64,000 nt of DNA from a virus: the IMG/VR virus record IMGVR_UViG_3300009164_003814; one strand, written 5' to 3'. The position numbers and the translations under genes are program-made. Positions 17,618 through 34,045 of this stretch are shown here, piece by piece (position 1 is the first letter of the stretch; every line of letters begins with the position of its first letter). A model generated the notes under the pieces. The model worked only from the letters and a program-made list of their open reading frames with translations, had not been told where the DNA came from and made no database searches.

Positions 17618-17639
17618 GTTGTGCGCTAAATATTACACA

Positions 17640-20600
17640 ATGAATATTTTAGAACTAGATTCCTACAACCTTGACGACGCAGTCAAGTTCAATGATCGCT
17701 TGAATCCTAGACTGTGGGACTCTACTGAGCATTTAAAGCCGGAAGTCAAGGCCCAGCTACTTTTAATAGCTGAAGATTTTCGCGAGTTTCTAGGCGTGAT
17801 AGATCTTGACTTGCAAGACATAACCATCAGTGGGTCAAATGCAGCCTACACATATACTCCCAACTCAGATATTGATCTACACCTAGTGGTCAAAATGCCC
17901 ACGGATGAAGTATATCGCGAGTTATTTGATGCTAAGAAGTTTCAGTATAACGAACAACACAATATTAAAATTGGCGGTTACGATGTTGAACTATATGTTC
18001 AATCTGCAGATCAACCACACATTAGTCAAGGTATCTACAGCGTATTAACCGATGATTGGATTCAAGTTCCGCGTCGTGTTAAGTCAGTGGTGGATGATAC
18101 TAGCACTGAGAATAAATTTAAAACTGTAGGGCATCAAATTGAAAAGGCCATTGCGTCGGGCAGTTTAACTCGCATGACCCGTATGGCTGAAAAGATTAAA
18201 CGGATGCGACAGACTGGACTTGAACAGCACGGCGAATTTGGTCCTGAAAACCTAGCATTTAAAATGTTACGCAGTCAAGGCAAGATTAAAGAACTATATG
18301 ATGCTCGTAATGCAGCCAAAGATCAAGAACTGAGTTTACGTGAACGTCGGCAACCGCATAGTGTGTTTACATATGGATTCAAACACGAAGAAGCCAACTC
18401 GGTGGTTGAACAAACAACCGAAGTTGACACCCCGTCGTTATCAGATGAACAAATACTAAAAGACTTTATCAAATTTTGTGTAGCAGAATTAAAAATCAAA
18501 TCAATGCCCACAGTCAAGTTGCGTCGTGACCCACAGTGGTCAGTGGTGAATAAGACTTTTGGTCGTTATATCAATGATGCACATTTGCTGGAGGTAGCAT
18601 TTGGCCAACGTCATATTATGGATGTGCTCCGTACTGTGGCACATGAACTCACACACAAACATCAACACGAGCGTGAAACAGTGCCTGGTGATGCTGGAGA
18701 AACTGGATCACCATATGAAAACGAAGCTAATGCCCGTGCTGGCATACTCATGCGTGACTATGGTCGCTTGCACCCAGAATTGTTTGATGCCAGTCAAACT
18801 GAACTAGAGGAAGGCGCAAGTGGATATATCCCCACAAAGAAGCAGGCTCGAGATCCGCGATTCAGCATGGCACTCACACAAGACATTCGCCCCGGACAAC
18901 TGGGCAAAGAAGCCAACAAGTTAAATTTAAAAACCAACCGGCAAGGCGTTCCACAGGTTGCCCGAGCAAATGGTCTGTTTGAGAAATTAAATTTAGAATT
19001 GGCCCGATTTAAAAAAGGTATAGCCGACGAGGATTACAGCCCAGATAATCCGCCAGGCCCAGAAACTAAACCTACCATGCCTAAAGGTACTATACGTGTA
19101 GATGTCAGCGACATGTATGACTGGTACAAGTTAGGCAAGAACATTAGTAATCTAAAAGCAGCAGACAAAAGCCAATTTGGCAAAGGTCCTCCTAGTACTA
19201 TTATATCATTTGGCGACGAAGATACAGAACACCAGTATATCAACGATTTAGAAAACTTAGGACTCACTACTACCGATATTGACCCTGTTGATCCTAATCA
19301 GCCCAAGAGTATGAAACGTCAAAAGACAGATCCTACCTACAATGTAGCCGAGTCTACGCAACTAGACGAAGTTAAAATGAGCCCGTCGGCCTTGCAAAAG
19401 TGGGCCCAGAGTCCAGAAGCACAGGGCATACGTGCCGGCTTTGAAGCAGAGATGATCTTCCGTGACACCAACAGCGGTGACGACAGTGACTACGACATGG
19501 AACCTGACTATGACATGGACGAACGTTGCCGTAGCATCCAACAAATCATAGACTTTTTCCAAGGTGGTGACTATGGTGGCTTGAGCCCACGTCAAGAACG
19601 TGCCTTGCAAGAAGGCCTAGACGAACAATATTACGAGTGGTACGATGAGCAAATGATCAAAGACTTTAGCAACGAAGCTGAAGATTTAATCCGTAAAGTT
19701 ATGGTTGACGAAGGTGATTGGGATCTTGACAATGAAATACAAAAACAGTTGGCATTATTGGATTTAACCGACGATAAAATAAATGCAATTATCAATGCCG
19801 GTGAGCGGGCTCCTAAATTTACGTCAAGTAAAGAACAACAAACATACGCAGAAGCCAATCCACAGTATCAACAGTATTTAGATGCACAAGAGGAAGCTGA
19901 AGGCCTGCTAGACGAGCTAATAGAAGATGAAGTTCGTAAACAAGGTGCAAACTGGGATGCCGCTCTAGATGACTTCCGAGATAATTATCAGATAGATGAC
20001 GATTCAGGATTTTTTGATGATGCAGGCCTACGCTGGATGAGTGATATCGCTAGCAATTATGATCTAGACTGGCCCTACATGACTGGCAGTGGTAGTAACG
20101 GCGGAAGTCGTGAATGGGATGAAATTGGCGACAGTTTACAAAGTGCTGTAGACATGCCGGTTAAAGTAAGTAGCAACTATCACAGTGCCACACGCAAGGA
20201 AGGCGTGTGGATTTTAGAGCCTGATTCTAGTTTACAACCCGACGACAGTGAAGACTTTGGCTTGGAAATTGTAAGTCCGCCTTTACCACTAGAACAAGCA
20301 TTAGAAAAACTAGAAGCGGTATGTGACTGGGCCAATTCAGACGAGGGCAACTGTTATACCAACAACTCAACCGGTCTACACATGGGCGTTAGTGTGCCGT
20401 TCAAAGGTGGTGACGTTGACTACTTGAAACTGATCCTGTTCCTGGGTGACGAATACGTGTTACAATCGTTTGGTCGTGAGGCCAACACCTACACCAAGTC
20501 AGCCATGAGCAAGTTCCGTGAAAACATCAAAGGTGGCCGTGCTGATCCTATGGGTGCAATCAAATTGATGCAAAGTGGCCTGCTCGAACTGGCACATAGA

Positions 20601-21863
20601 GAGATACAAAAAGGTGTAGGCGAAGGCAAGTACACATCAGCACATATACAAAATGGCTACATTGAATTCCGTAGTGCTGGCGGTGACTGGTTGGCTGAGG
20701 AAAATGCTGACCCTGAAAAACTATCCAGCACCATGTTGCGTTATGCTAGAGCCATGAGTCTTGCGGCCAACCCCAATGAAGAACGCAGAGAGTATGCTAA
20801 GAAACTGTACAAGTTGGTAGCGCCCGAAGGTGACAGTCAGTTGGCCCTGTTCAGTCAGTTTGCCGCAGGTGAGCTCACAGCAGAACAACTCAAGAAAAAG
20901 TGGGCTGAAAAGACCATTGGCACAGAAAAGAAAATGAATCAACGTTTTAGACTATATCAAAATGTCGACGGTGTATGGGAACCAGTTCCTGGAGCAGAAT
21001 GGAATGGCTATCCAGAAAGTGAAGTTAAAATGCGAGTATGGGCCAAGTACGGTCGTGAAGCATTAGACACAGGCGAATATCAGTTGGTCAATATGGGTGA
21101 ACAAGACTGGGAAGTGTATGATGTTAAAACCGGTGCTACACTTGAAATAGTCAAAGGCAAGAGCAAAGGCGAAGTGGCTGATGCTGTGTATGACAAGTAT
21201 GTGGATCAAGGCATTGGATTCCAGGTTCGTCCTTACGAAGATCCAGCTACAATGACTCCAAGAGCCAAGTTGGCCAAGCGTATCACAACCAAGAAAATAG
21301 ACTACAACTATGACATAGTGAGCCGTACCACCTACAAGGTCGTAGACCGATTCTATGCACAGACTCCGCAGGAAGCCGATCAGGTTTACGGAAGTTGGTT
21401 GAAACAAAATAACTTGCCTAACGAAACTGAAGACTATGGCTACCGCGCATCGGGCCATGCCCCAGGTGTGCAGGATGTGGAAACGGATGTTGCTCAAAAC
21501 TTTGACACACCACAAGATGCTACAGACATTCCGCGTGATTGGGAATTTGTAAATCGTATAACTGGTCAGGTTATTCATAGAATGACACATGCCAGTTACA
21601 ACCAAGCCAATGTAGTGCAAGATAATCTTGAAACTAGATATCCAGATGCAGACATATATTTGCGTAGCGTATCCAGTTTAGAAGAAAACTTTGCTGACGG
21701 CAAAGGGCCAGGACGTCCGGGCGATAGTCAGCGTCACGGAATACCCAAAGGTGCCACAATGGCAGAATTAGAAAAGGCATCACACAGTAAAGGTCGTAAA
21801 GGACAACTGGCACGTTGGCAGTTAAATATGCGTAGAGGACAGAAAAGGAAACACAAAGAATGA
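17640..21863 (+). CDS. Multidomain protein: Pol-beta-type nucleotidyltransferase, HEXXH metallopeptidase-like domain and putative amidoligase
   Basis: ISGSN...DIDLH; VAHELTH...E.EAN; GFEAE, EPDSSL, LEIVSPP, STGLH, IEFRS; ATG 17640 follows a terminator and CTAAATA. Confidence 0.75.
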   Translation: MNILELDSYNLDDAVKFNDRLNPRLWDSTEHLKPEVKAQLLLIAEDFREFLGVIDLDLQDITISGSNAAYTYTPNSDIDLHLVVKMPTDEVYRELFDAKKFQYNEQHNIKIGGYDVELYVQSADQPHISQGIYSVLTDDWIQVPRRVKSVVDDTSTENKFKTVGHQIEKAIASGSLTRMTRMAEKIKRMRQTGLEQHGEFGPENLAFKMLRSQGKIKELYDARNAAKDQELSLRERRQPHSVFTYGFKHEEANSVVEQTTEVDTPSLSDEQILKDFIKFCVAELKIKSMPTVKLRRDPQWSVVNKTFGRYINDAHLLEVAFGQRHIMDVLRTVAHELTHKHQHERETVPGDAGETGSPYENEANARAGILMRDYGRLHPELFDASQTELEEGASGYIPTKKQARDPRFSMALTQDIRPGQLGKEANKLNLKTNRQGVPQVARANGLFEKLNLELARFKKGIADEDYSPDNPPGPETKPTMPKGTIRVDVSDMYDWYKLGKNISNLKAADKSQFGKGPPSTIISFGDEDTEHQYINDLENLGLTTTDIDPVDPNQPKSMKRQKTDPTYNVAESTQLDEVKMSPSALQKWAQSPEAQGIRAGFEAEMIFRDTNSGDDSDYDMEPDYDMDERCRSIQQIIDFFQGGDYGGLSPRQERALQEGLDEQYYEWYDEQMIKDFSNEAEDLIRKVMVDEGDWDLDNEIQKQLALLDLTDDKINAIINAGERAPKFTSSKEQQTYAEANPQYQQYLDAQEEAEGLLDELIEDEVRKQGANWDAALDDFRDNYQIDDDSGFFDDAGLRWMSDIASNYDLDWPYMTGSGSNGGSREWDEIGDSLQSAVDMPVKVSSNYHSATRKEGVWILEPDSSLQPDDSEDFGLEIVSPPLPLEQALEKLEAVCDWANSDEGNCYTNNSTGLHMGVSVPFKGGDVDYLKLILFLGDEYVLQSFGREANTYTKSAMSKFRENIKGGRADPMGAIKLMQSGLLELAHREIQKGVGEGKYTSAHIQNGYIEFRSAGGDWLAEENADPEKLSSTMLRYARAMSLAANPNEERREYAKKLYKLVAPEGDSQLALFSQFAAGELTAEQLKKKWAEKTIGTEKKMNQRFRLYQNVDGVWEPVPGAEWNGYPESEVKMRVWAKYGREALDTGEYQLVNMGEQDWEVYDVKTGATLEIVKGKSKGEVADAVYDKYVDQGIGFQVRPYEDPATMTPRAKLAKRITTKKIDYNYDIVSRTTYKVVDRFYAQTPQEADQVYGSWLKQNNLPNETEDYGYRASGHAPGVQDVETDVAQNFDTPQDATDIPRDWEFVNRITGQVIHRMTHASYNQANVVQDNLETRYPDADIYLRSVSSLEENFADGKGPGRPGDSQRHGIPKGATMAELEKASHSKGRKGQLARWQLNMRRGQKRKHKE

Positions 21864-23308
21864 AAGCCTATGAATTTATCACTGAAAAGTGGAGTCAAAA
21901 ATACAAGAGCAGTATCAACTGTAGCCATCCTAAAGGGTTTAGTCAACGGGCTCATTGTGCTGGTAGGAAAAAGCACAATGAAAGTACAGAGATGGAAATG
22001 GTGTGTGAAGACTGCGGCATGTGCAAAACACACGGCAATATCAATGAAATCAAAAAGGGTCAAAAAGACTCAAACGGTTATACTCGTTGCTGGCCAGGCA
22101 AACATGCAGAAGGCACTAAAAAAGGCAAGAATGGTGGACAGGTGCGTAACTGTGTGCCTAATGAAAGTGTGGCGGAAAGTTTTATCCGTGACGGAGCTGA
22201 CTGGGAAAATGCCTTGCGTGAGTTAAATGTGTTTAACGATGTATTTCTAAGCCCTGATATCCAAGACACTCATGAATACACCAGAGATCCAGAGTGGCAA
22301 GATCTTTCTAAAATGATTAGAAATTCTGCAAGGGTCCAAGAAATATATGGCCAACTTAAAAAGTTTGCTAATCTAGGAGTAAAGTTAACTTCGTTTGAAG
22401 TCAACCTCTTGGACCCATTGGTATGGGACGGCGGCGGTGACATGGATATTGATCGTCTTGGCGACCTATATGCACACCAACTTGGTGCTGTAGAAGCATT
22501 GCTAAAAACAAAAAATCGAGGACAGGGACCAAACAAAACTAAGTCTGGGCAAACTATACATGAACAAGGTGATGGCAATGATGTTGAAGTAACTTCCGAT
22601 GATCAGACTGAAACTTATCGTTACAAAGGATGGCAATTTATCGAAACTGCCAACGACTACTACTCAGGCGAAGCCTGGTTGGTTGATCCTAATGGCAACG
22701 AAGAATGGTTTGGTTATCAAACAGATGACAATCGTGGCATACGCAAATACTACAACGACCAAGATCAGCTTGCATTTAGTTTAAGTGCTCGCGATGAAGG
22801 CCAAAGCACTGAAAAATGGTTAAAAGCTCAAGCCAGTAATTGGGCCGACACTTGGAATGCACAACCTAATGCTCCTGCAGTTCACGAATCCAACGAACTA
22901 GCCGAAGAGTTTGATCTTATTGAATCAATCATTGATCAAATTGCTGCTCAAAATGGTGTAGATTCCGAAGTAGTGTGGGATGATTTAGAATCATTAACAG
23001 AAGACGAGCTGTATGCATTTGCGGTAACTTCGCAACTGAACGAAGATTGGCAAAAGGTCAACAAGAAAGATCGTACTGCTGGCATGAGTCAGAAAGCTGT
23101 GAACGCTTATCGTAGAGAGAATCCAGGTTCAAAGTTAAAGACTGCTGTAACTACCAAGCCTAGCAAGTTAAAGAAGGGTAGTAAGGCCAGCAAGCGTCGC
23201 AAGAGCTATTGCTCACGATCACGTGGACAAATGAAAATGCACAACATTTCATGTGCTAAAACTCCAGACAAGGCTATTTGCAAGGCACGCCGTCGTTGGA
23301 ACTGCTAA
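21860..23308 (+). CDS. Modular protein of small Cys/basic modules (putative internal head protein)
   Basis: MKAYEFITE N-terminus; modules separated by x-x-E linkers. Confidence 0.55.
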   Translation: MKAYEFITEKWSQKYKSSINCSHPKGFSQRAHCAGRKKHNESTEMEMVCEDCGMCKTHGNINEIKKGQKDSNGYTRCWPGKHAEGTKKGKNGGQVRNCVPNESVAESFIRDGADWENALRELNVFNDVFLSPDIQDTHEYTRDPEWQDLSKMIRNSARVQEIYGQLKKFANLGVKLTSFEVNLLDPLVWDGGGDMDIDRLGDLYAHQLGAVEALLKTKNRGQGPNKTKSGQTIHEQGDGNDVEVTSDDQTETYRYKGWQFIETANDYYSGEAWLVDPNGNEEWFGYQTDDNRGIRKYYNDQDQLAFSLSARDEGQSTEKWLKAQASNWADTWNAQPNAPAVHESNELAEEFDLIESIIDQIAAQNGVDSEVVWDDLESLTEDELYAFAVTSQLNEDWQKVNKKDRTAGMSQKAVNAYRRENPGSKLKTAVTTKPSKLKKGSKASKRRKSYCSRSRGQMKMHNISCAKTPDKAICKARRRWNC

Positions 23309-24019
23309 ATGAGAGCTGAAGAATTCCTTATTGAACGCTGGACCAAAGCAACAGTAAAGAGTTACTTTGATAATAAAAAACAGCCTCAATTTACTAGTCG
23401 TGACATAAAGGTCAGTCGGCCTGTTGACGGCTGTGTCTTACTACAATATAAAACTATTCCAAATCTGGCTCGCAGTTTCTTTCGCGTGGCCGAATACTAT
23501 GACGGCAATCACTACAGTGGTAAAAGCGGACAAGTCACACTGGTTGATTTTTTAGACCAGTGGATGAATCAAAATGGTGACGTAGACTATTTTAAGTTCT
23601 GGGATGGATTTAATATTCCCGATCGTGCTTTTCGTTCTTGGCTAAAGTCTGCTGGCAAATTATCTACAGCCGAACAAGTCATGGTTACAGCAGTAGAAAA
23701 AGCTACTAAAGGTATGAAGAAGTTTTGTATCATTGGTGTCGGCAGCAAAGATGCAGACACAGTAAAGCACGAAATGTTTCATGCTAAGTATTACTTAGAC
23801 AGCAAATTTAAAACAAACGCAGATCAACTGCTAACGGATCATGCACAAGATCCTGCGGTTAAAACTATTAAAAAGATTTTGACTACCAAACTAGATTATA
23901 CTGACCACGTTGAAGAAGAAGTTGGAGCATATTTGTATGCTGGCTCTCAATTAAAGTTGGTATTTGGTGTAGAAGCTCAAGATCTTGTCAAACTATTTCA
24001 GGCCTTGGACAACAAATGA
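23309..24019 (+). CDS. HEXXH zinc-metallopeptidase-like protein
   Basis: KHEMFHA...EEE; N-terminus MRAEEFLIE. Confidence 0.5.
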   Translation: MRAEEFLIERWTKATVKSYFDNKKQPQFTSRDIKVSRPVDGCVLLQYKTIPNLARSFFRVAEYYDGNHYSGKSGQVTLVDFLDQWMNQNGDVDYFKFWDGFNIPDRAFRSWLKSAGKLSTAEQVMVTAVEKATKGMKKFCIIGVGSKDADTVKHEMFHAKYYLDSKFKTNADQLLTDHAQDPAVKTIKKILTTKLDYTDHVEEEVGAYLYAGSQLKLVFGVEAQDLVKLFQALDNK

Positions 24020-24495
24020 AAATTAAAGAATTACTAGTTGAGTATCAAGGTGGTGCATGGCGACTAATAAGAAGCATGGTGCCAAAACACTGGCCTGACT
24101 ATGTGGTCAAAGACGCTCTCTACAGTAAAATTCCTGATAACATGGAGCTTGAAGATAAAAAAGCTCACGTACAGCATATTTTACAAGAATACCCAATCCG
24201 GCAATGGCGGTTAGAACGCTTGCCTATTACCATAGACGTCTTTACTCCTCGCACACAGGAACAGATTCGTAAAAGAGAAGGCGGCTCTAAAAATCCTAAT
24301 CAGGTGCCTAGGGATGCCGAACGACATGCCACACAGGCTGCCAAGATACAACAACAAGGTGTTAGTGGAGAGCCTATTATTGTTGTGAAAAAACCCGATG
24401 GCTATGAGTTATGGGAAGGTGGGCATAGAACCACGCAAGCACTAAAGGCATTCCCACAAGGATATACAGGGCCGGCTTGGGTAGGATACCTATGA
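24016..24495 (+). CDS. ParB/Srx-like domain protein
   Basis: EPIIVV...YELWEGGHR motif. Confidence 0.65.
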   Translation: MKIKELLVEYQGGAWRLIRSMVPKHWPDYVVKDALYSKIPDNMELEDKKAHVQHILQEYPIRQWRLERLPITIDVFTPRTQEQIRKREGGSKNPNQVPRDAERHATQAAKIQQQGVSGEPIIVVKKPDGYELWEGGHRTTQALKAFPQGYTGPAWVGYL

Positions 24496-25949
24496 GATTA
24501 CGAGAATTTGCTCCTAGTCCGGATCGTGACGACAACGATGATGTTCCAGATCAGTTAGTAGTTCTGGCCAATCGCTGGTGGAACGCCACGGATCGACAGC
24601 CACAAATTGAGCATGTGTTAAACAGCCTTGGGTGGAGTATTGCTCAAGTTGAAAGCGAAGATGATGCTGTGCAACTACAGCACCGCGATGGCACTACATA
24701 TTTTATCAGTGCTGATGATTTTGATCCAGACCTGTTTGAATACCAAAATCCTAGAATTCATCGGGCCAACCGCGATGGTATAGATTTATCTTTTGAAAAA
24801 GTAAAAGATGATGAGTATGTTGACGACAATGACGACGAAAATACAGTAGCACAGGTTACGGCTACTAGCAACGGTAAAGAATTAGGGCATGTGTTGTTTT
24901 CAATTGATGGCGATACATTGTTGCCACAAGATTTAGAAGTAGATGAACGTTATCGTGGGCAAGGTATTGCTGCCATCATGTATGACTATGTAAAAAGTCT
25001 AGGATATCAAATACGGCGTAGTGGTCAACAAACTGATGCCGGTGCTGGGTTTTGGAGTAAGCATCGTCCTAGTCAAAATGTATGGGAAACAGAGCTGGAC
25101 GAAAGTCAGCGACGCCAACACTTAGATTTTGATTCTTTATATGGTAAAGCATTCAAAATTACAGACCACAGTGGCAACCCAAATACTCCAGGATTTAGCA
25201 TTGTCACTCCACTAAACGGTGACTCGTGGAATTGGCGTGAGCGTCCTGAGTTTAAGGCTATTGTAAAACGCAAATTAAATCAACCTGGATGGCTCGGTGA
25301 TCACAAGTATCAACAGATTATTGATTACATGGCAGGTAATAAGTTTGATCCTGCAAAACATTTAGTAAAAGAAATAGCCCGCATACCACAAGGTGATTTT
25401 GGCGATGCCGATACTCTTGTTCCACCCAAGTATGCGGTAAAGAAAAAAGAGTTGCCCGGAGGTGCAGGGTTTACCTATGCTGTAGGCAAGACAGGCCCAG
25501 AAGAGTTGGAAATCATGATCTTTGATGGCGATACCTTAGCCGCAGAACTTGATTTATTTTATACCCGCGATAAGACTGATGCCTGGAGAATTAGTACCGT
25601 GGCTGTCAATCCTCAATACCGCAGTCGTGGATTGGGCAAAGCCCTGTATGGCATTGCCCTGAGCATATTGAAACTTACTATAGAAGCTGGTGATACCCAG
25701 ACCCGGCACGGACAACGCATGTGGTTGATGTTGAACAGTATCCCTGGTGTCGAAGTTAAAGGTTACAACATGGAACGTACCTCTCAATATCAACCTAGGC
25801 CGACGGATGAAATTATAGATCAAGACAAAGACTGGACAAGATACACATTTCCTGTGAAACCCGGTGTTCACAGTATGCGCAGTGGCCGCCGTGGTACCGG
25901 CATGTATACCAGTATGGCCAGTATGCTTGCTAAATGGACAGGTCAATGA
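24492..25949 (+). CDS. Multidomain protein with two GNAT acetyltransferase domains
   Basis: VDERYRGQGIA...QTDAGAGFW and VNPQYRSRGLGKALY...QTRHGQRMW. Confidence 0.75.
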   Translation: MRLREFAPSPDRDDNDDVPDQLVVLANRWWNATDRQPQIEHVLNSLGWSIAQVESEDDAVQLQHRDGTTYFISADDFDPDLFEYQNPRIHRANRDGIDLSFEKVKDDEYVDDNDDENTVAQVTATSNGKELGHVLFSIDGDTLLPQDLEVDERYRGQGIAAIMYDYVKSLGYQIRRSGQQTDAGAGFWSKHRPSQNVWETELDESQRRQHLDFDSLYGKAFKITDHSGNPNTPGFSIVTPLNGDSWNWRERPEFKAIVKRKLNQPGWLGDHKYQQIIDYMAGNKFDPAKHLVKEIARIPQGDFGDADTLVPPKYAVKKKELPGGAGFTYAVGKTGPEELEIMIFDGDTLAAELDLFYTRDKTDAWRISTVAVNPQYRSRGLGKALYGIALSILKLTIEAGDTQTRHGQRMWLMLNSIPGVEVKGYNMERTSQYQPRPTDEIIDQDKDWTRYTFPVKPGVHSMRSGRRGTGMYTSMASMLAKWTGQ

Positions 25950-26134
25950 GAGCTCGAGACATATACCCAAAATATAAACTCTGGACTGCACCTGTGCGTA
26001 TCCAACAACCCAACTATGTGGGCTATATCGATGTTACAGTAACAGCGGCCAACATGCAAGATGCTCGCAGACTAATGAAAGCCCAATACGGAGTAGAAGA
26101 TTGGCACATTGGATCAACCAAAGAACTCAAATAA
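25946..26134 (+). CDS. Small hypothetical protein
   Basis: ATGA coupling; MRARDIYP. Confidence 0.55.
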   Translation: MRARDIYPKYKLWTAPVRIQQPNYVGYIDVTVTAANMQDARRLMKAQYGVEDWHIGSTKELK

Positions 26135-26152
26135 TTAACCGCTAAATACAGT

Positions 26153-26446
26153 ATGACTAAACAGTTCGTACGAGTACTAGCAGATGTTGATTGCGAGTGG
26201 GAAGGATTAGCCCCTACGTATCGCTTGTATCTCGATGACGAACTGTTTGCTGAACGCACCTGGAGATGGACTGATTCACGTCTTGAAGAAATGATGCAGG
26301 TCGAAGCTGAACCAGGCGAATACCGTATTCGTTTTGAGTTGGTTCCACCCCATTTGGCACAGTTGCAAGTGACAAACATCAGAGTTGATTATGGCCCTGG
26401 AACAGTAAAAGATAACGTACTAAGGATTCGCAATGAGACTGCATGA
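26153..26446 (+). CDS. Hypothetical protein
   Basis: 97-aa ORF after CTAAATA. Confidence 0.55.
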   Translation: MTKQFVRVLADVDCEWEGLAPTYRLYLDDELFAERTWRWTDSRLEEMMQVEAEPGEYRIRFELVPPHLAQLQVTNIRVDYGPGTVKDNVLRIRNETA

Positions 26447-26642
26447 ATTTGTTAATTTAACGGAAGATGGTGGCGCTAGCAGTGGCACTACTTGTAGCGG
26501 TAGTATAGCGCCTGTTAGTATGCCCTTGGGCGGCATGATTAGCAGAAATGGCGGAAGTTTCTTTAGTGGCACTAAATACACTACGGACGACGCAACGCCT
26601 AACACGCCTGCAGAGTACAAAAAATATAAACGGAAGAAATAA
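26433..26642 (+). CDS. Small hypothetical protein (putative internal protein)
   Basis: MRLHEFVNLTE N-terminus. Confidence 0.55.
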   Translation: MRLHEFVNLTEDGGASSGTTCSGSIAPVSMPLGGMISRNGGSFFSGTKYTTDDATPNTPAEYKKYKRKK

Positions 26643-27082
26643 TGTTAGCTGATTTGTTAAAAACTTACCTTGCAAGTACATTTGCCTATTACTTAAAAGC
26701 CCACTATTTTCATTGGGACGTAGAGGGTCCAGACTTTGGACAGTTGCACAAATTTTTTCAAAAAATCTACGAAGATGCATATTCAGCTGTAGATCCCATT
26801 GCTGAATATATCCGTACTACAGAAGAATATGCTCCAGGAAGCCTAAGTCGCTTCCAAGAATTATCACAAATACAGGACCAAATCAAGGTTCCTCGTGCCC
26901 GATTGATGTTACAAGAATTACTCGCAGATACACAGACCATGATTGACATGAGCAAGCAAGTATTTGATGCTGCCACTGCTGAAGGTCGTGAAGACATTGC
27001 AAATTTTGCCGCGGAACGCCAAAGCAGTCATGGCAAATATTCATGGCAATTGAAGAGTTATTTGAAAGACGCAAGGGCATGA
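26642..27082 (+). CDS. dps: Dps/ferritin-like DNA protection protein
   Basis: HYFHWDVEGPDF..LH, D..AE, H.K..W.L. Confidence 0.85.
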   Translation: MLADLLKTYLASTFAYYLKAHYFHWDVEGPDFGQLHKFFQKIYEDAYSAVDPIAEYIRTTEEYAPGSLSRFQELSQIQDQIKVPRARLMLQELLADTQTMIDMSKQVFDAATAEGREDIANFAAERQSSHGKYSWQLKSYLKDARA

Positions 27083-27085
27083 TCA

Positions 27086-27754
27086 ATGGCGCACGACCAT
27101 AACGACATTTATTCGATCGTAGAACGACTACGAATCCTTGAAGAAGGACTCGACAAAAACCAACGCAGTGTCAATCAACTGGGTGCTACTTTTAAACCCA
27201 AAACAGTAGCAGTGCTCACAGCCAAAACTGATCCTAAGAATCCAATGGCCGGCAAACTAGTTGGTGGGTGCGAAGAGTCAGAAGAGCTGGATGAAACTGC
27301 TGTAGCCGAAGATGTTCTAGACAAGGTTAAAAAATCATTTGCTGATTATCTAAGCAACATAGCAGATGAAATCAAAACTGATACAGATCTCAAAGACAAG
27401 AAGCACGACGATACTGATATCAAGGCCAAAGATAAACAAGATAGAACTCTCGTTGCCAAACAAAATGAAGACACCGAAATTGGCGCAGCTCTAAGTGGTG
27501 AGATTCCTTCAGAGCAACCTGCGGGTGAACCTGGTGTAAGCATGAAAGAAAATACAACAGTTAAAACTGTTGCCAATGAATGTGGCTTATGGGAAGTACA
27601 CGGCAATGAACCAGATGGCTTTGAAATACATCGTAAAGGCCGTTGTTTGCCCACAAAATTTAAAACACTAGATGAGGCTGAGATGGCCTTGGAAATGTTT
27701 AACGCTCGTCAACGTAGGCGTGATGAAGCAGCGGATTACATAGACGAAGCTTAA
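27086..27754 (+). CDS. Acidic modular hypothetical protein
   Basis: 222 aa with several x-x-E linkers. Confidence 0.55.
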   Translation: MAHDHNDIYSIVERLRILEEGLDKNQRSVNQLGATFKPKTVAVLTAKTDPKNPMAGKLVGGCEESEELDETAVAEDVLDKVKKSFADYLSNIADEIKTDTDLKDKKHDDTDIKAKDKQDRTLVAKQNEDTEIGAALSGEIPSEQPAGEPGVSMKENTTVKTVANECGLWEVHGNEPDGFEIHRKGRCLPTKFKTLDEAEMALEMFNARQRRRDEAADYIDEA

Positions 27755-27767
27755 GGAAAATAAAAAA

Positions 27768-29774
27768 ATGTTTGCACTAGACTTATTCAACACGGACCAC
27801 GAACGCAGAATTGCAGAAGGCGCAGTAGATCAATTAGAACAACGACGTATTGATGACTTGGCTATGCGGATGGATGACTTGGTTGCTCGTGCCAAGAAAG
27901 CTGATACACCAGAAGCCAAGCAAGCACTAATGAAAGAATTTCAAAAGTGCAAGGCCGAGCGTGACAGCTATCATATGGTACGCAACGAGACCATGGGCTA
28001 TGGTGCACTAACTGGCGAAGGTCAAGTGACTCCTACTGCTACAGGTATTAAACATCATGCCAAACCTGGAGTGTATGGTGGGTTTGAAAAAGAAAAAGAT
28101 CCACTGGCTAAATTAGACAAAGGCACAACTAATAGTCTTGAAAAAGCTATGGGTATCAAATTTGATCGTCAAAAGAAATACCAAGGCGGATTAGATGTTG
28201 ACGAAGGCGGCATTCCCGGCAATGTTCCTGTAGAAAAGATTCCTGGCAAGGAAGATCTGCTCAAAGGCCGAGGCCGCAACTACTACGAAGCTGATCAAAA
28301 AAAAAATGCTGATAATGAAAATAATGACGACTGGTACGATGAAGATGTAGAAGAAGGTTATGCTGCTAGTATTGGTCCAGACGTTGCTCCGTTACCACCA
28401 GAAAAACAGTGGAGAATACAAGTTAGACAGCTGATTGCTGACTACATTAAAAATCCACAAGGTCTATATAACATTGCCAAGCAAAAAGGCGCCAACAGTG
28501 CCGAAGCCGCAGCTTACAAATATATCATGCACCCAACAAGCAAGATTGCGTTGCCGGCCAATACAGTCACATTTGAAGGTTATCAAGACTTCGACAAAGT
28601 AGAACCATATGAGGTTTGCTTGGCCGGCAAGTGTGTTAAAACATTTGACTACTATGAAGATGCCCGTCGCTTCCATGACAACTGGAAGAAAAAGTTGTAT
28701 CGCGAAGGCGACAAGGCTAAGGCAGATAAGATTACACTAAATCCTGTAATGAAAGAGGAAGAACAAAAACACGGACTAGATATAAAAGAAACCAAGGCAG
28801 ATCCTACCGGTTCATGGGTAGTATATAACGGTAACAAGGTTGTAAAGTTTAAGACACATCCAGGTGCCAAGGTCTATGCTGAGAAGAATGGCGGCAAGGT
28901 TGCAAGTAGCGAGTTCTATGCTGATAAGATTCAAAAGTCAGGTGTAACCGAAGGTGACACGGGCAACCTGCATGCCGACTTGGCCGATGTGTACAGTCGC
29001 ATGGCTCCTGGTATTGAACGCCACAGAGACAGTTTCAAAGCCGGTCAACTGTACGACGCACTGGAAGCTGTTGCAGAACAACACAATGCACATAGAGAAT
29101 TTACTCGTATGATGTCCGGGGCCCGTAACCGTGCGCACATGGACTACGATACCAACCCAGGTGGATTTCAAAACTGGTTCTGGTACTTGCCATTTGCTAA
29201 GGAAGAATTAGAAGAGGGGCTCGATTTAATCAACATGTCAGATTTACAGTTCTATAAAGAATTGTTAGGTGTTATGATAATTCCTGTTGCGGCATTTGGT
29301 GCAATGGCCTGGCATAAAGCTATGAATGCTATTAAATTATATCGTGCAGAGGATGTAATTACAGCCCTACAGAAAAAAGGTGTTACTGTTGACCGTAGTA
29401 CACTTGAACAGATTAAGCCACTGTTACTAAAACTTGAACGGGCTATTGATGTTGACAAAGATGGTGACGTGGCCAAAGAGTTGGCCAAGCGTATTCAACA
29501 AACTGTAACCTGGGGCAAACTAAAACAGGTCAATCCAGACACAACGGTGAATCGTAAATCCGAAATAGTTGAAGAGCAAGACACTAGCGGTGTAGAACGT
29601 GCTATCCTTAATCGTATCATGACTGCCCACACAGACCTGTTGATGAAGTTTGGTCCAGACAAAGTCATGCAGGCCGCAGAAGAAGTTGCTTACAATGTAG
29701 GTGACGTAGACGAAATTGGCACCAGCGATGTCAGTGCTTATGTTAATCAAGTTCGACAAATTCTTGGTGCTTGA
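27768..29774 (+). CDS. Large modular hypothetical protein
   Basis: 668 aa; recurring IAEG/VDEG/VEEG/TFEG/VTEG/LEEG linkers. Confidence 0.6.
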   Translation: MFALDLFNTDHERRIAEGAVDQLEQRRIDDLAMRMDDLVARAKKADTPEAKQALMKEFQKCKAERDSYHMVRNETMGYGALTGEGQVTPTATGIKHHAKPGVYGGFEKEKDPLAKLDKGTTNSLEKAMGIKFDRQKKYQGGLDVDEGGIPGNVPVEKIPGKEDLLKGRGRNYYEADQKKNADNENNDDWYDEDVEEGYAASIGPDVAPLPPEKQWRIQVRQLIADYIKNPQGLYNIAKQKGANSAEAAAYKYIMHPTSKIALPANTVTFEGYQDFDKVEPYEVCLAGKCVKTFDYYEDARRFHDNWKKKLYREGDKAKADKITLNPVMKEEEQKHGLDIKETKADPTGSWVVYNGNKVVKFKTHPGAKVYAEKNGGKVASSEFYADKIQKSGVTEGDTGNLHADLADVYSRMAPGIERHRDSFKAGQLYDALEAVAEQHNAHREFTRMMSGARNRAHMDYDTNPGGFQNWFWYLPFAKEELEEGLDLINMSDLQFYKELLGVMIIPVAAFGAMAWHKAMNAIKLYRAEDVITALQKKGVTVDRSTLEQIKPLLLKLERAIDVDKDGDVAKELAKRIQQTVTWGKLKQVNPDTTVNRKSEIVEEQDTSGVERAILNRIMTAHTDLLMKFGPDKVMQAAEEVAYNVGDVDEIGTSDVSAYVNQVRQILGA

Positions 29775-30169
29775 TGAGAGCTACAGAAATTCTAAATGAA
29801 GCTCATGCTGCAACACAGTTGCCTGGATATGATTCAAAAAATTCAATGCACGGTCCATGGGCAGCTGCTTTTCGTAGAAGAAAACACTCAGCACCAAAAT
29901 CTGGCACAGAGTTTAATATTACCCAAGAGCAGGCATGGGAGATTATTAATAAACAAGGTTGGAAATGTGCATTAACTGGAGTTCCATTTAGTCGTAGTGG
30001 CTCGGCTAAAGATCTAAATAGTCCAAGTGCAGATCGAATTGATTCAAGCAAAGGTTATATTCCAGGCAATGTTCAATATGTTAGATTAGTAGTAAACTTA
30101 GCAAAACGAGATTTAAGTGATGCTGACTTTATTACACTATGTAAACAAGTAGCAACATATAACAAATGA
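29774..30169 (+). CDS. HNH-like endonuclease
   Basis: Q...CALTG, S.DRIDSSKGY..GNVQ.V...VN..K. Confidence 0.7.
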   Translation: MRATEILNEAHAATQLPGYDSKNSMHGPWAAAFRRRKHSAPKSGTEFNITQEQAWEIINKQGWKCALTGVPFSRSGSAKDLNSPSADRIDSSKGYIPGNVQYVRLVVNLAKRDLSDADFITLCKQVATYNK

Positions 30170-30798
30170 GAGCCACAGACTTTGAAATCCGCAATCATGA
30201 CAAGTTAGATCGTATTCTAGCTGAGTTATGTTCTCTAGTCATTCAAGGTCAACAAAAAGATCAAGGCCTAGGCATGGTAGCAGCCGCTGTGCTCGATCCC
30301 GATAACAATTGTGTAGTAGGTATCAATTACCCCACTCGAGACGGCCATCGTGTTCACGGTGAACGTGCCGCTATTGACAGTTACTATGCTCGCTTTGGTC
30401 CTATTCCTGATGGTAGCATTATTATTACAACTTGTAGTCCATGCACTCAATACATGGCTGAACGTGAAGGAGTTAACTGTTCTGATCTCATTGACGAAGT
30501 TGGTGTTCATAAAGTCTATGCTGGCTATCAAGATCCTAGCCAGGGACGGATACGTAAAAAGTATCACATAGAAATCACACGTAATCTCAAACTAGAAAAA
30601 CTATGCAAGGCATTTGCTGATACATTTTTAAAAGATGACTTGAATGAACTTGAATTCTTAGGATCACCATGTACCAAAGACTGTTCAGGTCATCGTGCTG
30701 GCTATGCTTGGAGTCAAAGCAAAGGTGGCCGTGTAGCACAAAGTCCATTTAGCCCCAGTTTTAATAATGGCAGTCAACTGCATGTGGATGGTAAGTAG
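30166..30798 (+). CDS. Zn-dependent cytidine/nucleotide deaminase-fold protein with C-terminal Cys module
   Basis: HGERAAI, TTCSPC...C; tail CTKDCSGHRAGY.W. Confidence 0.7.
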   Translation: MRATDFEIRNHDKLDRILAELCSLVIQGQQKDQGLGMVAAAVLDPDNNCVVGINYPTRDGHRVHGERAAIDSYYARFGPIPDGSIIITTCSPCTQYMAEREGVNCSDLIDEVGVHKVYAGYQDPSQGRIRKKYHIEITRNLKLEKLCKAFADTFLKDDLNELEFLGSPCTKDCSGHRAGYAWSQSKGGRVAQSPFSPSFNNGSQLHVDGK

Positions 30799-31387: not shown

Positions 31388-34045
31388 TTGAGTTATATTG
31401 ACGCTTTATTTGATAGAGAACACGATCGTATTCACATAGTTGAACGGCGTGATGGCAAGAGATGCTATCAAGAATATTCAGCCAACTATGTGCTATACTA
31501 TGATGATGCCCGTGGCAAGTTTCAAAGTATTTTTGGTACACCTGTCAGCAGATTCAGCACTAGAAACAGCAAAGAATTTCGCAAGGAAGTTCGCATACAG
31601 TCAAACAAACAACTGTATGAATCAGACATTAATCCCATCTTCCGTTGCCTTGAAGAAAACTACAAAGGTCAAGACGGCCCAAAACTTAATGTAGCGTTCT
31701 TTGACATTGAGGTCGACTTCGACCCCGAGCGTGGATTTAGTCCTCCTGCAGATCCATTCAACGCCATTACCGCCATATCAGTGTACTTGCAATGGCTCAA
31801 TCAAATGGTCACACTGGTGATGCCGCCCAAGCACATGAGCCCGGCTACTGCCCGCGACATTGCTGGTGATTTTGAAAATACCATTGTATTTGAAACTGAA
31901 GAAGACCTACTCAACACATTCTTGGATCTGATTGAAGATGCTGATGCCTTGTCTGGGTGGAACAGCGAAGGCTTTGATATTCCATACACTGTGAATCGTG
32001 TGACCCGTGTACTCAGCAAAGATGATACCCGTAGATTTTGCTTGTGGAACCAATATCCTAAGAAACGTACATTTGAACGCTTTGGTGCAGAAAATGAAAC
32101 TTATGACTTGATTGGTCGTGTGCATATGGACTATATGCAATTGTATCGCAAGTACACATACGAAGAGCGCCACAGTTACAGTTTGGATGCCATTGCCGAA
32201 TATGAACTTGGTGAAACTAAAACAGTGTTTGAAGGCACATTGGATCAACTGTACAATCAAAACTTTAAAACATTCATTGAGTACAACCGACAAGACACAA
32301 TGATTCTGGCCAAGCTAGACAAGAAATTAAAATTTCTTGATCTTGCTAATACATTAGCACATGAAAATACTGTGCTACTACAAACCACCATGGGTGCTGT
32401 GGCTGTTACAGAACAAGCAATCATCAACGAAGCTCACGAGCGTGGCATGGTAGTTCCTAATCGTAAGGAACGTTACTCAGATGAGGATACACAAGCCGCC
32501 GGTGCTTATGTAGCATATCCCAAAAAAGGAATTCACGAATACATTGGATCAATTGATATTAACTCTCTATATCCAAGTGCAATTCGTGCGTTGAATATGG
32601 GTCCAGAAACTATTGTAGGACAACTGCGCCCCACTATGACTAACCGGTATATTCGAGATAAAATGAATTCTGGCTCCAGCTTTGCTGCAGCCTGGGAAGG
32701 CGTGTTTGCCTCATTGGAATATACCGCAGTAATGAATTTAGAAAAAGGCACAGAGATCACCATTGACTGGCAAGGTGGTGAAGAGTCAGTACATAGTGCC
32801 GCAGAAGTATGGCGCATGATCTTTGACAGCAATCAACCTTGGATGATCAGTGCCAATGGTACTATCTTTACCTATGAAAAAGAGGGTGTTATTCCTGGCT
32901 TGTTAAAACGCTGGTATGCCGAACGTAAAGACATGCAGTCCAAATTGAAAGAATGTAAAAATGCAGAAGATGAAGAATACTGGGACAAGCGTCAGCTTGT
33001 TAAAAAGATTAACCTTAACAGTCTCTATGGTGCTATTCTTAATCCTGGTTGCCGTTTCTTTGATAAGCGTATTGGTCAGTCTACAACCCTTACTGGTCGT
33101 GCCATTGCCAAGCACATGGATGCTTATGTAAACGAATGTATCACTGGCAAGTATGATCATGTGGGTGAAACTATTATCTACGGTGACACAGACTCGTGTT
33201 ATTTTAGTGCGTGGCCAGTGCTGAAAAAAGAAGTCGAAGAAGGACGTATGACTTGGTCAAAAGACATGGCTATACAACTGTATGATTCAATTGCGGATCA
33301 AGTCAACATCAGCTTTCCAGGTTTTATGGAAACTGCATTCCATGTGCCTAGAGAGATGGGCGAAGTGATTAAAGGTGGGCGAGAGGTAGTAGCCAGCAAG
33401 GGCTTGTTTATTACCAAAAAGCGTTATGCAGTGATGATCATTGACAAGGAAGGCAAACGCTTAGACGTTGCTGGACAGCCTGGTAAGGTCAAGGCCATGG
33501 GCTTAGATTTAAAACGCAGTGACACGCCCAAAGTTATTCAAGAGTTCTTAAGTGAGATTCTCAATGATGTGTTAACTGGTGCCACCCGTGATGAGATTAT
33601 TGCTAAGATTCGCGAGTTCAAATACGTTTTTAAAGAACGTCCAGGTTGGGAAAAAGGCAGTCCAAAACGTGTAAACAACTTGACCAAGTACGGCAAAGAA
33701 GAAGAACGCCTGGGCAAAGCCAACATGCCCGGGCATGTTCGTGCGGCACTTAATTGGAATAACTTGCGTAGGATGAATGGTGACAAGTATAGTTTGCAAA
33801 TTGTTGATGGTATGAAAACTATTGTGTGCAAACTCAAAAGCAATCCTCTAGGATGGACCAGTATTGGATATCCTACAGATGAACAACAATTACCTGCATG
33901 GTTCAAAGAACTACCGTTTGATGACAGCGAGATGGAAGCCACAGTAGTTGATCAAAAGATCGACAACTTGTTAAGTGTGTTGGAGTGGGACCTAGCTAGT
34001 TCTACCAACACAGAAAATACTTTTGAAACTTTGTTTGAGTGGTAA
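31388..34045 (+). CDS. DNA polymerase family B (T4 gp43-like)
   Basis: Exonuclease FFDIEV, GWNSEGFDIPY, YN..D; polymerase DINSLYPS, K...NSLYG, YGDTDS, KKRY; TTG start with ggag SD. Confidence 0.95.
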   Translation: MSYIDALFDREHDRIHIVERRDGKRCYQEYSANYVLYYDDARGKFQSIFGTPVSRFSTRNSKEFRKEVRIQSNKQLYESDINPIFRCLEENYKGQDGPKLNVAFFDIEVDFDPERGFSPPADPFNAITAISVYLQWLNQMVTLVMPPKHMSPATARDIAGDFENTIVFETEEDLLNTFLDLIEDADALSGWNSEGFDIPYTVNRVTRVLSKDDTRRFCLWNQYPKKRTFERFGAENETYDLIGRVHMDYMQLYRKYTYEERHSYSLDAIAEYELGETKTVFEGTLDQLYNQNFKTFIEYNRQDTMILAKLDKKLKFLDLANTLAHENTVLLQTTMGAVAVTEQAIINEAHERGMVVPNRKERYSDEDTQAAGAYVAYPKKGIHEYIGSIDINSLYPSAIRALNMGPETIVGQLRPTMTNRYIRDKMNSGSSFAAAWEGVFASLEYTAVMNLEKGTEITIDWQGGEESVHSAAEVWRMIFDSNQPWMISANGTIFTYEKEGVIPGLLKRWYAERKDMQSKLKECKNAEDEEYWDKRQLVKKINLNSLYGAILNPGCRFFDKRIGQSTTLTGRAIAKHMDAYVNECITGKYDHVGETIIYGDTDSCYFSAWPVLKKEVEEGRMTWSKDMAIQLYDSIADQVNISFPGFMETAFHVPREMGEVIKGGREVVASKGLFITKKRYAVMIIDKEGKRLDVAGQPGKVKAMGLDLKRSDTPKVIQEFLSEILNDVLTGATRDEIIAKIREFKYVFKERPGWEKGSPKRVNNLTKYGKEEERLGKANMPGHVRAALNWNNLRRMNGDKYSLQIVDGMKTIVCKLKSNPLGWTSIGYPTDEQQLPAWFKELPFDDSEMEATVVDQKIDNLLSVLEWDLASSTNTENTFETLFEW

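What the first reader, a model, noticed from the sequence alone, without database searches (positions are those of the whole stretch)
17640..30798. Array of putative capsid-packaged, protease-processed effector polyproteins
Seen: about ten otherwise unrelated ORFs share an N-terminal M-[KR]-x-x-[ED]-[FIL] leader, often closing with h-x-E: MKAYEFITE, MRAEEFLIE, MKIKELLVE, MRLREFAP, MRARDIY, MRLHEFVNLTE, MRATEILNE, MRATDFEI, and more loosely MNILELD and MFALDLF. Domain junctions repeatedly carry h-x-E linkers (LEEG, VAES, LDE, INE, IHE, LNE, LFE, VTEG, VKE). Late-type TAAATA motifs precede 17640 and 26153. Known: the T4 internal-protein capsid-targeting sequence is MKTYQEFIAE, and prohead protease gp21 cuts after L/I-x-E. 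Inference: a 13-kb interchangeable payload of enzymes (nucleotidyltransferase, peptidases, amidoligase, ParB, GNATs, HNH, deaminase) that is packaged, cut into single domains and injected with the DNA, probably for host takeover or anti-defence.
Basis: partly seen in the sequence, partly recalled or inferred. Interest (0 to 1): 0.85.

Follow-up and report, generated by a model that had tools for sequence, protein, structure and literature searches.

The report
Capsid-loading tags on phage cargo array
An uncultured giant phage puts a short tag, very like the phage T4 peptide that loads proteins into the virus head, on a fast-changing 13-kb block of enzyme genes whose modules are joined at head-protease cutting motifs; this is probably cargo loaded into the head, but no packaging or cutting has been measured.

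Summary
Eight of 13 ORFs at 17640-30798 start M-[KR]-x-x-[ED]-[FIL], against 1 of 72 elsewhere (p=2e-7). Related uncultured jumbo phages sharpen it to M-R-A-x-E-F-[LIV]-x-E, on at least 46 unrelated cargo families. It keeps the residues needed for targeting (Phe) and cutting (h-x-Glu) in T4's capsid targeting sequence MKTYQEFIAE.

All five large leader-bearing genomes tested encode a T4 gp21-type head protease; the catalytic His/Ser were checked in G002 only. These include G002, a 345-kb relative collinear with the window (PolB 83% identical). In relatives, leader genes also sit in the structural block, once inside the head-core cluster.

Internal h-x-E is not enriched overall. However, three mobile modules are bounded by h-x-E in 23 of 24 contexts, N-terminal or deep inside long ORFs, which supports the "polyprotein" idea at those joints. 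A rival tag-for-an-enzyme reading failed: no neighbour family occurs in more than 13 of 86 loci.

Packaging, cleavage, injection and any anti-defence role remain untested, and no cultured relative carries these genes.

Verdict: a new variant of the T4 internal-protein system. This scan has noted similar tags on other uncultured T4-type phages, including this same motif.

The parts
17627..17632 (+). TAAATA promoter-like box 7 nt upstream of the first array gene
   Evidence: The box is enriched upstream of starts (15 observed, 1.7 expected). In G002 the same box form precedes the portal, sheath, tube and the array's first gene.
17640..21863 (+). 1407-aa mosaic ORF (MNILELD...). NTase at residues 1-240, then modules that are separate leader genes in relatives, an amidoligase module at about 558-1085, and a basic ~60-aa C-terminal module from residue 1350.
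   Evidence: Pfam NTP_transf_2 and Amidoligase_2; phrog_36119 covers residues 9-232. The NTase is a standalone 231-252-aa protein in L101, L114, L144 and L151. The amidoligase module is standalone behind MRAQEF / MRARNFIAE leaders in L099 and L144.
19311..19355 (+). Internal decayed leader relic (Met558 MKRQKTDP..NVAE|S) at the start of the amidoligase module
   Evidence: It aligns to the N-terminal leader MRAQEFEP of the standalone homologue L099_7152.
21678..21701 (+). Junction ..SLEE|NFADG.. before the basic C-terminal module
   Evidence: It aligns to the leader MKVSEILE|NFADG of the 64-aa standalone protein in L129. The module is preceded by Glu in 13/13 contexts and by h-x-E in 12/13.
21860..23308 (+). 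482-aa ORF: leader MKAYEFITE, Cys module (WSQKYK..PKGFSQRAHC), acidic middle, DUF6321 module from residue 396 behind QLNE|DW
   Evidence: Pfam DUF6321. Residues 1-38 are 71% identical to cyanophage SynMITS9220M01 ORF096, which lies just upstream of the terminase. The DUF6321 module is standalone behind MRAYEFINE in L129.
23309..24019 (+). 236-aa ORF: leader MRAEEFLIE, cargo of unknown fold with an HEMFH motif
   Evidence: Homologues at 60-67% identity in six IMG/VR loci all keep M1 R2 A3 E5 F6 L7 E9. In the AF2 model, residues 1-12 have pLDDT about 30. No PDB fold match.
24016..24495 (+). 159-aa ORF: leader MKIKELLVE, ParB_N-like lead
   Evidence: No Pfam hit. Atlas feature score 0.94 to a viral cluster in which 63% of members carry ParB_N.
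24492..25949 (+). 485-aa ORF: MRLREFAP (no closing h-x-E), two GNAT domains, with a decayed leader relic at Met280 (nt 25329)
   Evidence: Pfam Acetyltransf_1/7. Residues 280-296 align to the leader MRAIEFLQE of the standalone homologue L104_4974.
25946..26134 (+). 62-aa basic ORF, MRARDIY
   Evidence: ORF and motif. 35% identical homologue starting MRYKEIKP in the G002 array.
26143..26148 (+). Second TAAATA box, 4 nt upstream of ORF26153
26153..26446 (+). 97-aa ORF without a leader; conserved array member
   Evidence: Homologue in L005; no family.
26433..26642 (+). 69-aa basic ORF MRLHEFVNLTE|DGGASSG..SGSIAPV. Member of a small-protein family whose leader plus following stretch resembles the capsid protein's maturation site.
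   Evidence: Family members align to MCP residues about 37-64 with z = 5.2-9.3 (0/300 shuffles). The window copy is marginal at z = 2.6.
26642..27082 (+). Dps/ferritin-like protein, no leader
   Evidence: Pfam Ferritin 1.6e-20. Next to leader genes in 12 of 86 loci. 57% identical to the G002 copy.
27086..27754 (+). 222-aa acidic ORF, no strict leader; conserved array member
   Evidence: Homologues in L005, L006 and G002.
27768..29774 (+). 668-aa mosaic ORF with a second type of N-terminus (MFALDLFNT; relatives MNLNDLFTE, MILNDLFES). The module at residues 604-667 is shared with structural-block proteins.
29774..30169 (+). 131-aa ORF: leader MRATEILNE, HNH/EndoVII-like lead
   Evidence: Atlas score 0.92. 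Structural matches begin at residues 17-23, that is after the leader. No Pfam hit.
30166..30798 (+). 210-aa cytidine/dCMP deaminase-like ORF, MRATDFEI (no closing h-x-E)
   Evidence: Pfam dCMP_cyt_deam_1 9.7e-9. The L005 orthologue starts MILADFQI.

Best explanation
The region is a hypervariable cargo locus of an uncultured jumbo phage that builds its head the T4 way. Two tightly coupled transcription units, each behind a TAAATA box, encode proteins whose first nine residues (M-R/K-A-x-E-F-h-x-E) act as a capsid-targeting propeptide.

Proposed mechanism: the Phe-centred N-terminus binds the scaffolding core as the prohead forms. The gp21-type (Peptidase_S77) prohead protease then cuts after the Glu of h-x-E, leaving the cargo inside the head. 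Long ORFs are chains of modules that relatives encode as separate tagged genes. One N-terminal tag would carry the whole chain in, and joints that kept h-x-E would be cut to release single modules.

Shown:
- the tag, its enrichment, and its conservation at the peptide level;
- modular cargo and rapid turnover;
- the matching protease and T4-type head module in five leader-bearing relatives;
- placement of some tagged genes among head and tail genes;
- h-x-E at mobile-module boundaries.

Inferred: binding to the core, cleavage, retention in the head, ejection into the host, and what the enzymes do there.
For: 1. Enrichment: 8/13 against 1/72 in the window. In the collinear relative G002 (PolB 83% identical), 14/473 ORFs carry the tag: six in the syntenic array and four in two adjacent pairs.

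2. A stricter pattern that includes the closing h-x-E hits 0 of more than 7000 internal Met positions. In T4 it finds only IPII, IPIII and gp61.1; in GAP32 it finds nothing.

3. T4 mutagenesis places targeting at CTS residues 4 and 7 and processing at residues 8 and 10 (PMC9026906). gp21 cuts after I/L-x-E (PMC12991175). The new tag keeps F, h and E at the matching places.

4. An IMG/VR scan gave at least 120 stretches. In 80 loci, 151 of 1099 ORFs are tagged, falling into 46 unrelated cargo clusters, often in tandem.

5. All five large tagged contigs have one S77 protease and one gp23-type capsid gene. The G002 protease keeps the catalytic His and Ser.

6. Context: in G002 and L007 tagged genes lie between the head-completion gene and the terminase, beside proteins starting MKTFAQYLIE and MKTLKDYLTE. 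In G003 a tagged gene lies inside the head-core cluster. Terminase, head-completion, sheath and neck genes are recurrent neighbours.

7. The capsid protein has L-A/K-E at the place of T4's LTE65 cut. Small tagged proteins copy that site together with the stretch that follows it.

8. Module boundaries are h-x-E in 23/24 contexts. Taking P3 alone, p=2e-12 overall and 1e-8 for internal contexts only.

9. The leader is the least confident, unpacked part of the AF2 model, and lies outside the fold match of ORF29774.
Against: - There are no proteomic, N-terminal or expression data for any member, and no cultured phage carries these cargo families.
- The head genes are not in the 64-kb window; they are inferred from G002.
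- Three of the eight window tags (24492, 25946, 30166) lack h-x-E, and the deaminase orthologue in L005 starts MILADFQI.
- The T4 residue-4 aromatic is usually absent from the 9-residue form.
- T4 gp61.1 and a cyanophage cytidylyltransferase carry CTS-like starts with no known packaging.
- Internal h-x-E is not enriched overall.
- The TAAATA box also drives metabolic operons.
- The window's own small protein resembles the capsid cut site only weakly (z = 2.6).
Confidence: 0.6

Rival explanations
1. The tag is a recognition peptide for some other partner: a modifying enzyme, a chaperone, or the phage's ClpA/ClpP system. It would mark proteins for modification, folding or timed degradation in the infected cell, not for the capsid.
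For: An earlier case in this scan (e1-127136) reinterpreted a shared phage N-terminal tag as a radical-SAM enzyme's recognition site. The window encodes ClpA and DnaJ (notes; ORFs), and G002 has ClpP next to the array. T4 gp61.1 and a cyanophage cytidylyltransferase have CTS-like starts with no known packaging. After a cut, the new N-termini would often be Arg or Lys followed by Trp.
Against: No family co-occurs with the tag: the best neighbours are in at most 13 of 86 loci, and the radical-SAM-like protein in 10. GAP32 encodes ClpA but has no tags. The tag ends in the S77 protease's motif and copies the capsid protein's cut site. Tagged genes sit in the head, tail and terminase blocks.
Confidence: 0.15
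2. The shared gene starts are a by-product of how genes are shuffled and translated. In this reading, a common 5' cassette (ATGA stop-start overlap plus a favoured first few codons) serves recombination and translational coupling, and the peptide itself has no function.
For: Most array genes overlap the upstream stop by ATGA or by one base and lack a Shine-Dalgarno sequence. The ATGA overlap forces codon 2 to begin with A, which fits AGA and AAA. Mobile regulatory cassettes are known to drive shuffling in T4-type genomes (PMC2839356, listed).
Against: Glu, Phe and Ala codons in the tag vary as in the background, so the conservation is in the peptide. Other ATGA-coupled genes in the window start MT, MI or MS. 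The same h-x-E recurs at internal module joints far from any start codon. The similarity to the T4 CTS includes its functionally mapped residues.
Confidence: 0.08
3. The tag does target proteins to the prohead, but the cargo works inside the particle (DNA condensation, scaffolding, head stability) or is degraded there. It would not be injected as enzymes against the host.
For: A Dps-like DNA-binding protein and several small basic proteins belong to the array. In T4, gp22, gp67 and gp68 are tagged for the core and then destroyed (PMC9958956). No defence-related family was found.
Against: Most cargo are enzyme-like domains (NTase, amidoligase, GNAT, deaminase) with no obvious role in a closed capsid. 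The cargo set turns over rapidly between close relatives, as expected for host-directed functions such as T4 Ip1-3 (PMC12373910).
Confidence: 0.15

Closest known systems
T4 internal proteins IPI, IPII, IPIII and Alt, with the capsid targeting sequence (MKTYQEFIAE) removed by prohead protease gp21 (Mullaney & Black 1996; PMC9026906, PMC9958956, PMC12373910)
   Same: A short N-terminal tag on otherwise unrelated proteins. It has Phe at the targeting position and ends in hydrophobic-x-Glu. The loci are polymorphic between related phages. The genome type has the gp20-gp21-gp22-gp23 head module and an S77 protease.
   Different: The tag is one residue shorter and usually lacks the position-4 aromatic. 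Cargo is far more numerous and larger, and mostly enzyme-like (NTase, amidoligase, GNAT, deaminase), whereas the T4 IPs are small basic inhibitors. Some cargo is strung into chains of up to 1407 aa. The host phage is an uncultured jumbo phage about 50% identical in PolB to Phosso and Atu_ph07. Nothing has been shown experimentally.
Polymorphic IP loci of T-even phages (Repoila et al. 1994, as cited in PMC9026906 and PMC12373910)
   Same: Cassette-like replacement of tagged genes between conserved flanks. Here the flanks are 66-82% identical between the window and G002, while most cargo has no counterpart.
   Different: About 13 kb and 13 genes here, against one to a few small genes. Modules also move within ORFs.
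Head and 'ejection' proteins of phiKZ-like giant phages (SPN3US, phiKZ), processed by a gp21-related protease (PMC5694885, PMC10052503)
   Same: Many head-internal proteins are cut after Glu by a T4-related protease. The propeptides are thought to target proteins into the prohead.
   Different: Those propeptides are 80-130 residues long and are not a short shared tag. The phage lineage and the cleavage context differ.
CTS-like tags noted by this scan on other uncultured T4-type phages (e1-5765646, same MRAxE(F/I)xxE motif; e1-5826867, e1-5756021, e1-5702602, e1-5841484, e1-3862018, e1-1066390)
   Same: The same logic: a shared N-terminal tag ending in h-x-E, and in several cases modular chains joined at protease motifs.
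   Different: These are unpublished AI notes on other DNA. Most of their tags differ in sequence.

Membership tests
T4-type capsid targeting sequence (CTS) propeptide | About 10 N-terminal residues shared by otherwise unrelated proteins of one phage | tested here: met
   8/13 array ORFs against 1/72 elsewhere. 46 unrelated cargo clusters among 151 tagged ORFs in relatives.
T4-type capsid targeting sequence (CTS) propeptide | Targeting residues: aromatic or hydrophobic residues at T4 positions 4 and 7 | tested here: inconclusive
   The equivalent of position 7 (F/I/L at position 6) is defined by the pattern, with F in 21/37. The position-4 aromatic is mostly absent from the 9-residue form. It is present in MKAYEFITE and in the 10-residue forms MKTFAQYLIE and MKTLKDYLTE.
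T4-type capsid targeting sequence (CTS) propeptide | Ends in the gp21 cleavage motif I/L-x-E | tested here: met
   h-x-E at positions 7-9 in 18/37 unbiased leaders, against 1.5% expected. Five of the eight window leaders have it; three do not.
T4-type capsid targeting sequence (CTS) propeptide | The phage has a gp21-type (Peptidase_S77) prohead protease and a T4-type scaffolding core | tested here: met
   These genes are not in the 64-kb window. They are present in the collinear relative G002 and in four other tagged genomes. The catalytic His and Ser are conserved in G002.
T4-type capsid targeting sequence (CTS) propeptide | The tagged protein is found in proheads and virions, with the tag removed | not testable with these tools
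   No cultured relative carries the cargo families, and no proteomics exists.
T4-type capsid targeting sequence (CTS) propeptide | The tag is sufficient to package a foreign protein | not testable with these tools
   Needs a fusion experiment.
T-even polymorphic internal-protein locus | Variable tagged genes between conserved flanking genes | tested here: met
   The window and G002 are collinear with flanks 66-82% identical, and most cargo is unshared. Arrays in L004-L006 differ again.
Protease-jointed cargo polyprotein (proposed kind, not an established family) | The modules of a long ORF occur elsewhere as separate tagged genes, and the joints carry the protease motif | tested here: met
   ORF17640, ORF21860 and ORF24492 are mosaics. 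Joints align to leaders. 23/24 module boundaries are h-x-E. Two joints have decayed and lack the motif.
Protease-jointed cargo polyprotein (proposed kind, not an established family) | General excess of h-x-E in the long ORFs | tested here: not met
   1.21 against 1.18 per 100 aa.
Leader peptide recognised by a dedicated modifying enzyme (RiPP-like / radical SAM) | Consistent genomic linkage of tagged genes to one enzyme family | tested here: not met
   The top neighbour families occur in at most 13/86 loci, and the radical-SAM-like protein in 10/86.

The most novel reading that the evidence does not exclude
A lineage-wide 'plug-in' loading system. Any module that follows hydrophobic-x-Glu could be moved between genes or strung into chains behind a single nine-residue head-targeting tag. 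The head protease would then double as the releasing enzyme, delivering a changeable cocktail of enzymes (nucleotidyltransferase, amidoligase, acetyltransferases, deaminase, nuclease-like proteins) into the host together with the DNA. Small tagged proteins that copy the capsid protein's own maturation site may tune or time the protease.
Probability: 0.35. Interest if true: 0.8.

Novelty: new variant of a known kind. Interest (0 to 1): 0.62.

Why it matters
If the tag works as in T4, it is a simple sequence handle for finding proteins carried in the head, and perhaps injected, in uncultured giant phages. Such proteins are where first-minute counter-defence and host-takeover functions are expected, and they are otherwise invisible to homology searches. 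It would extend the T4 internal-protein idea from a few small inhibitors to large sets of enzymes, and to chains cut apart by the head protease. The tag and its joints could also be tested as a way to load foreign proteins into phage heads, as the T4 CTS already does.

Tried and rejected
- Near-identity DNA search of the array against cultured phages: no match.
- Protein searches of three cargo families against cultured phages: no match, or only 27% identity to jumbo Xanthomonas phages. No virion proteomics can therefore be borrowed.
- My first gapped DNA pattern was mis-specified, allowed out-of-frame spacing and missed T4's own IPs, so I discarded it.
- Phosso, Atu_ph07 and GAP32 (the nearest cultured relatives by PolB) have no tag arrays. 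The tag is therefore not a feature of the whole supergroup.
- The general h-x-E enrichment test was negative.
- Pfam at E<=1 gave nothing for ORF23309, 24016, 29774, 27086 or 27768. PADLOC gave nothing useful.
- The AF2 model of ORF23309 had no significant PDB fold match.
- The radical-SAM/partner-enzyme rival was tested by neighbour clustering and not supported.
- No whole genome is held for the window. G002 was used as a proxy.
Full report
**What the window is.** The 64-kb window is a fragment of an uncultured jumbo phage. Its family-B DNA polymerase (31388-34045) is 50% identical to that of Sinorhizobium phage Phosso, 47% to Atu_ph07 and 43% to GAP32 and CBB. The array has no DNA match among cultured phages, and no whole genome is held. 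An IMG/VR contig of 345 kb, estimated 99% complete and here called G002, has a PolB 83% identical and is collinear with the window. I used it as a proxy for the missing genome.

**The observation.** Thirteen co-directional ORFs fill 17640-30798. Eight start M-[KR]-x-x-[ED]-[FIL], against one of 72 elsewhere in the window (Fisher p=2e-7). Nearly all starts overlap or abut the upstream stop codon and lack a Shine-Dalgarno sequence. There are two tightly coupled units, each behind a TAAATA box (17627 and 26143). That box is a genuine upstream element: 15 of 38 copies lie within 35 nt of a start, where 1.7 are expected. However, it also precedes metabolic operons and the tmRNA gene. In G002 the same box precedes the portal, sheath, tube and a core gene, as well as the array's first gene.

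Pfam confirms the NTase, amidoligase, two GNATs, deaminase, DUF6321 and a Dps/ferritin. ParB and HNH are only language-model leads.

**The tag in relatives.** Homologues of ORF23309 in six IMG/VR loci keep M1 R2 A3 E5 F6 L7 E9 exactly. They sit in arrays of different composition.
- In 37 leaders that were not selected by my pattern, Ala3 occurs in 20, and hydrophobic-7 plus Glu-9 in 18 (expected 1.5%, p=3e-23).
- Codons for Glu, Phe and Ala vary as in the background, so the peptide is what is conserved.
In the 80 loci returned, 151 of 1099 ORFs are tagged, often in tandem. They fall into 46 unrelated cargo clusters, on contigs of up to 525 kb.
- In G002, 14 of 473 ORFs are tagged: six in the syntenic array and four in two adjacent pairs.
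- A stricter pattern that includes the closing h-x-E finds nothing at more than 7000 internal Met positions. It finds nothing in GAP32, and in T4 only IPII, IPIII and gp61.1.

**Link to head assembly.** In T4 the first ten residues of IPIII are sufficient for packaging. Residues 4 and 7 matter for targeting and residues 8 and 10 for processing, and Asp at position 10 blocks cutting but not targeting (PMC9026906). gp21 cuts after I/L-x-E (PMC12991175). Aligned from its C-terminal end, the new tag keeps Phe, the hydrophobic residue and Glu.

- All five large tagged contigs encode one Peptidase_S77 and one gp23-type capsid protein, in a T4-like head module. The G002 protease keeps the catalytic His and Ser.
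- In G002 and L007, tagged genes lie between the head-completion gene and the large terminase. Their neighbours there start MKTFAQYLIE and MKTLKDYLTE, which is the 10-residue T4-length form.
- In G003 a tagged gene sits inside the head-core cluster.
- A T4-like cyanophage has the same tag and Cys module just upstream of its terminase.
- The lineage's capsid protein has L-A/K-E where T4 gp23 is cut (LTE65). Small tagged proteins of the ORF26433 family copy that site together with the Ser/Gly/Ala-rich stretch after it (z = 5-9 for three members; only 2.6 for the window's copy).

**The 'polyprotein' claim.** As a general statement it fails: [LI]xE is no more frequent in the array than elsewhere. 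Comparison gives a sharper answer. ORF17640, ORF21860 and ORF24492 are mosaics of modules that relatives encode as separate tagged genes.
- The basic 60-aa module is standalone in L129 as MKVSEILE|NFADG, and internal in the window as ..SLEE|NFADG.
- The DUF6321 module is standalone as MRAYEFINE|DWNKVN, and internal as ..QLNE|DWQKVN.
- Two other joints keep decayed leader relics at internal Met residues.
- Across all loci, three mobile modules are bounded by h-x-E in 23 of 24 distinct contexts. Taking the P3 residue alone, p=2e-12 overall and 1e-8 for internal contexts only.

This is what one expects if a single N-terminal tag suffices for a chain and the joints serve as release sites.

**Rivals.**
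No neighbour family is present in more than 13 of 86 loci. GAP32 has ClpA but no tags.
- A purely nucleotide-level start cassette is contradicted by the codon variation and by the internal joints.
- Whether the cargo is injected and acts on the host, or works or is destroyed inside the head, cannot be decided here.

**Limits.**
- There is no experimental evidence for any member.
- The head genes are inferred from relatives.
- Three window tags lack the cleavage motif.
- T4 gp61.1 shows that a CTS-like start does not by itself prove packaging.
- 'Anti-defence' has no direct support.

**Verdict.** This is a new variant of the T4 internal-protein/CTS system, in an uncultured jumbo lineage, with enzyme cargo and module joints at protease motifs. 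The scan has noted similar tags on other DNA, including this same motif.

Noticed in passing
T4 NC_000866 18966-19130 (-), locus L240: The uncharacterised T4 protein gp61.1 (54 aa), next to the primase gene, starts MKTFKEFIKE. This is a near-perfect capsid targeting sequence, and I found no role reported for it.
   Followed up: partly
L002 4001-6114; MT408532.1 40815-41420 and 130252-131478: T4-like cyanophage SynMITS9220M01 has CTS-like starts on a 39-aa ORF plus a 665-aa neighbour just upstream of the terminase (MKTFKQFQEG), on ORF053 (MKTFAQFVNE), and on an annotated cytidylyltransferase (MKNFFQFLSE).
   Followed up: partly
G002 193248-194465 (locus L211): The major capsid gene of the close relative G002 is interrupted by an in-frame TAA, giving pieces of 301 and 89 aa. 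This may be a sequencing error, readthrough or an insertion; not resolved.
   Followed up: no
G001 (524-kb IMG/VR contig), 18719-21427 (+) and 508485-511193 (-): Two inverted copies of the DNA polymerase gene lie near the two contig ends. This suggests an assembly artefact or an inverted duplication, so the 524-kb size may be overstated.
   Followed up: no
G002 335901-336494 and contig ends: G002 has a ClpP-like gene between the array and PolB that the window lacks at that position. The G002 contig breaks inside the array, which may reflect strain-level variation there.
   Followed up: no
window 27768-27800; L006 7182; L132 5268-6008; G002 338683-340341: A second recurrent N-terminus (MFALDLFNT, MNLNDLFTE, MNLNTLFEN, MILNDLFES) heads long mosaic proteins of the arrays. 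It may be another tag class.
   Followed up: partly
window 29577-29768 (ORF27768 residues 604-667): This ~60-aa module is shared with proteins of the structural block next to the terminase in G002 and in several other loci, including one starting MKTLKDYLTE.
   Followed up: partly
L206-L210 (head modules of five jumbo contigs): The S77 protease starts MALYL[RK]E, with an h-x-E at residues 5-7, much like the LIE-9 self-cleavage site of T4 gp21. The small core protein starts MRLLEMF in one genome.
   Followed up: partly
window 7782, 9747, 14822, 15804, 16634, 35001, 38071, 43922, 44732, 53854, 60222, 60917: TAAATA boxes lie shortly upstream of many other genes, including the sugar operons and the tmRNA gene. 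This is probably the phage's late-type (T4 TATAAATA-like) promoter class.
   Followed up: partly
window 34047-34979: The methyltransferase-like ORF after PolB starts MKLSEL (MKLSDI in relatives). It is conserved, but it has no closing h-x-E and lies outside any array, so it is probably not a tag.
   Followed up: partly
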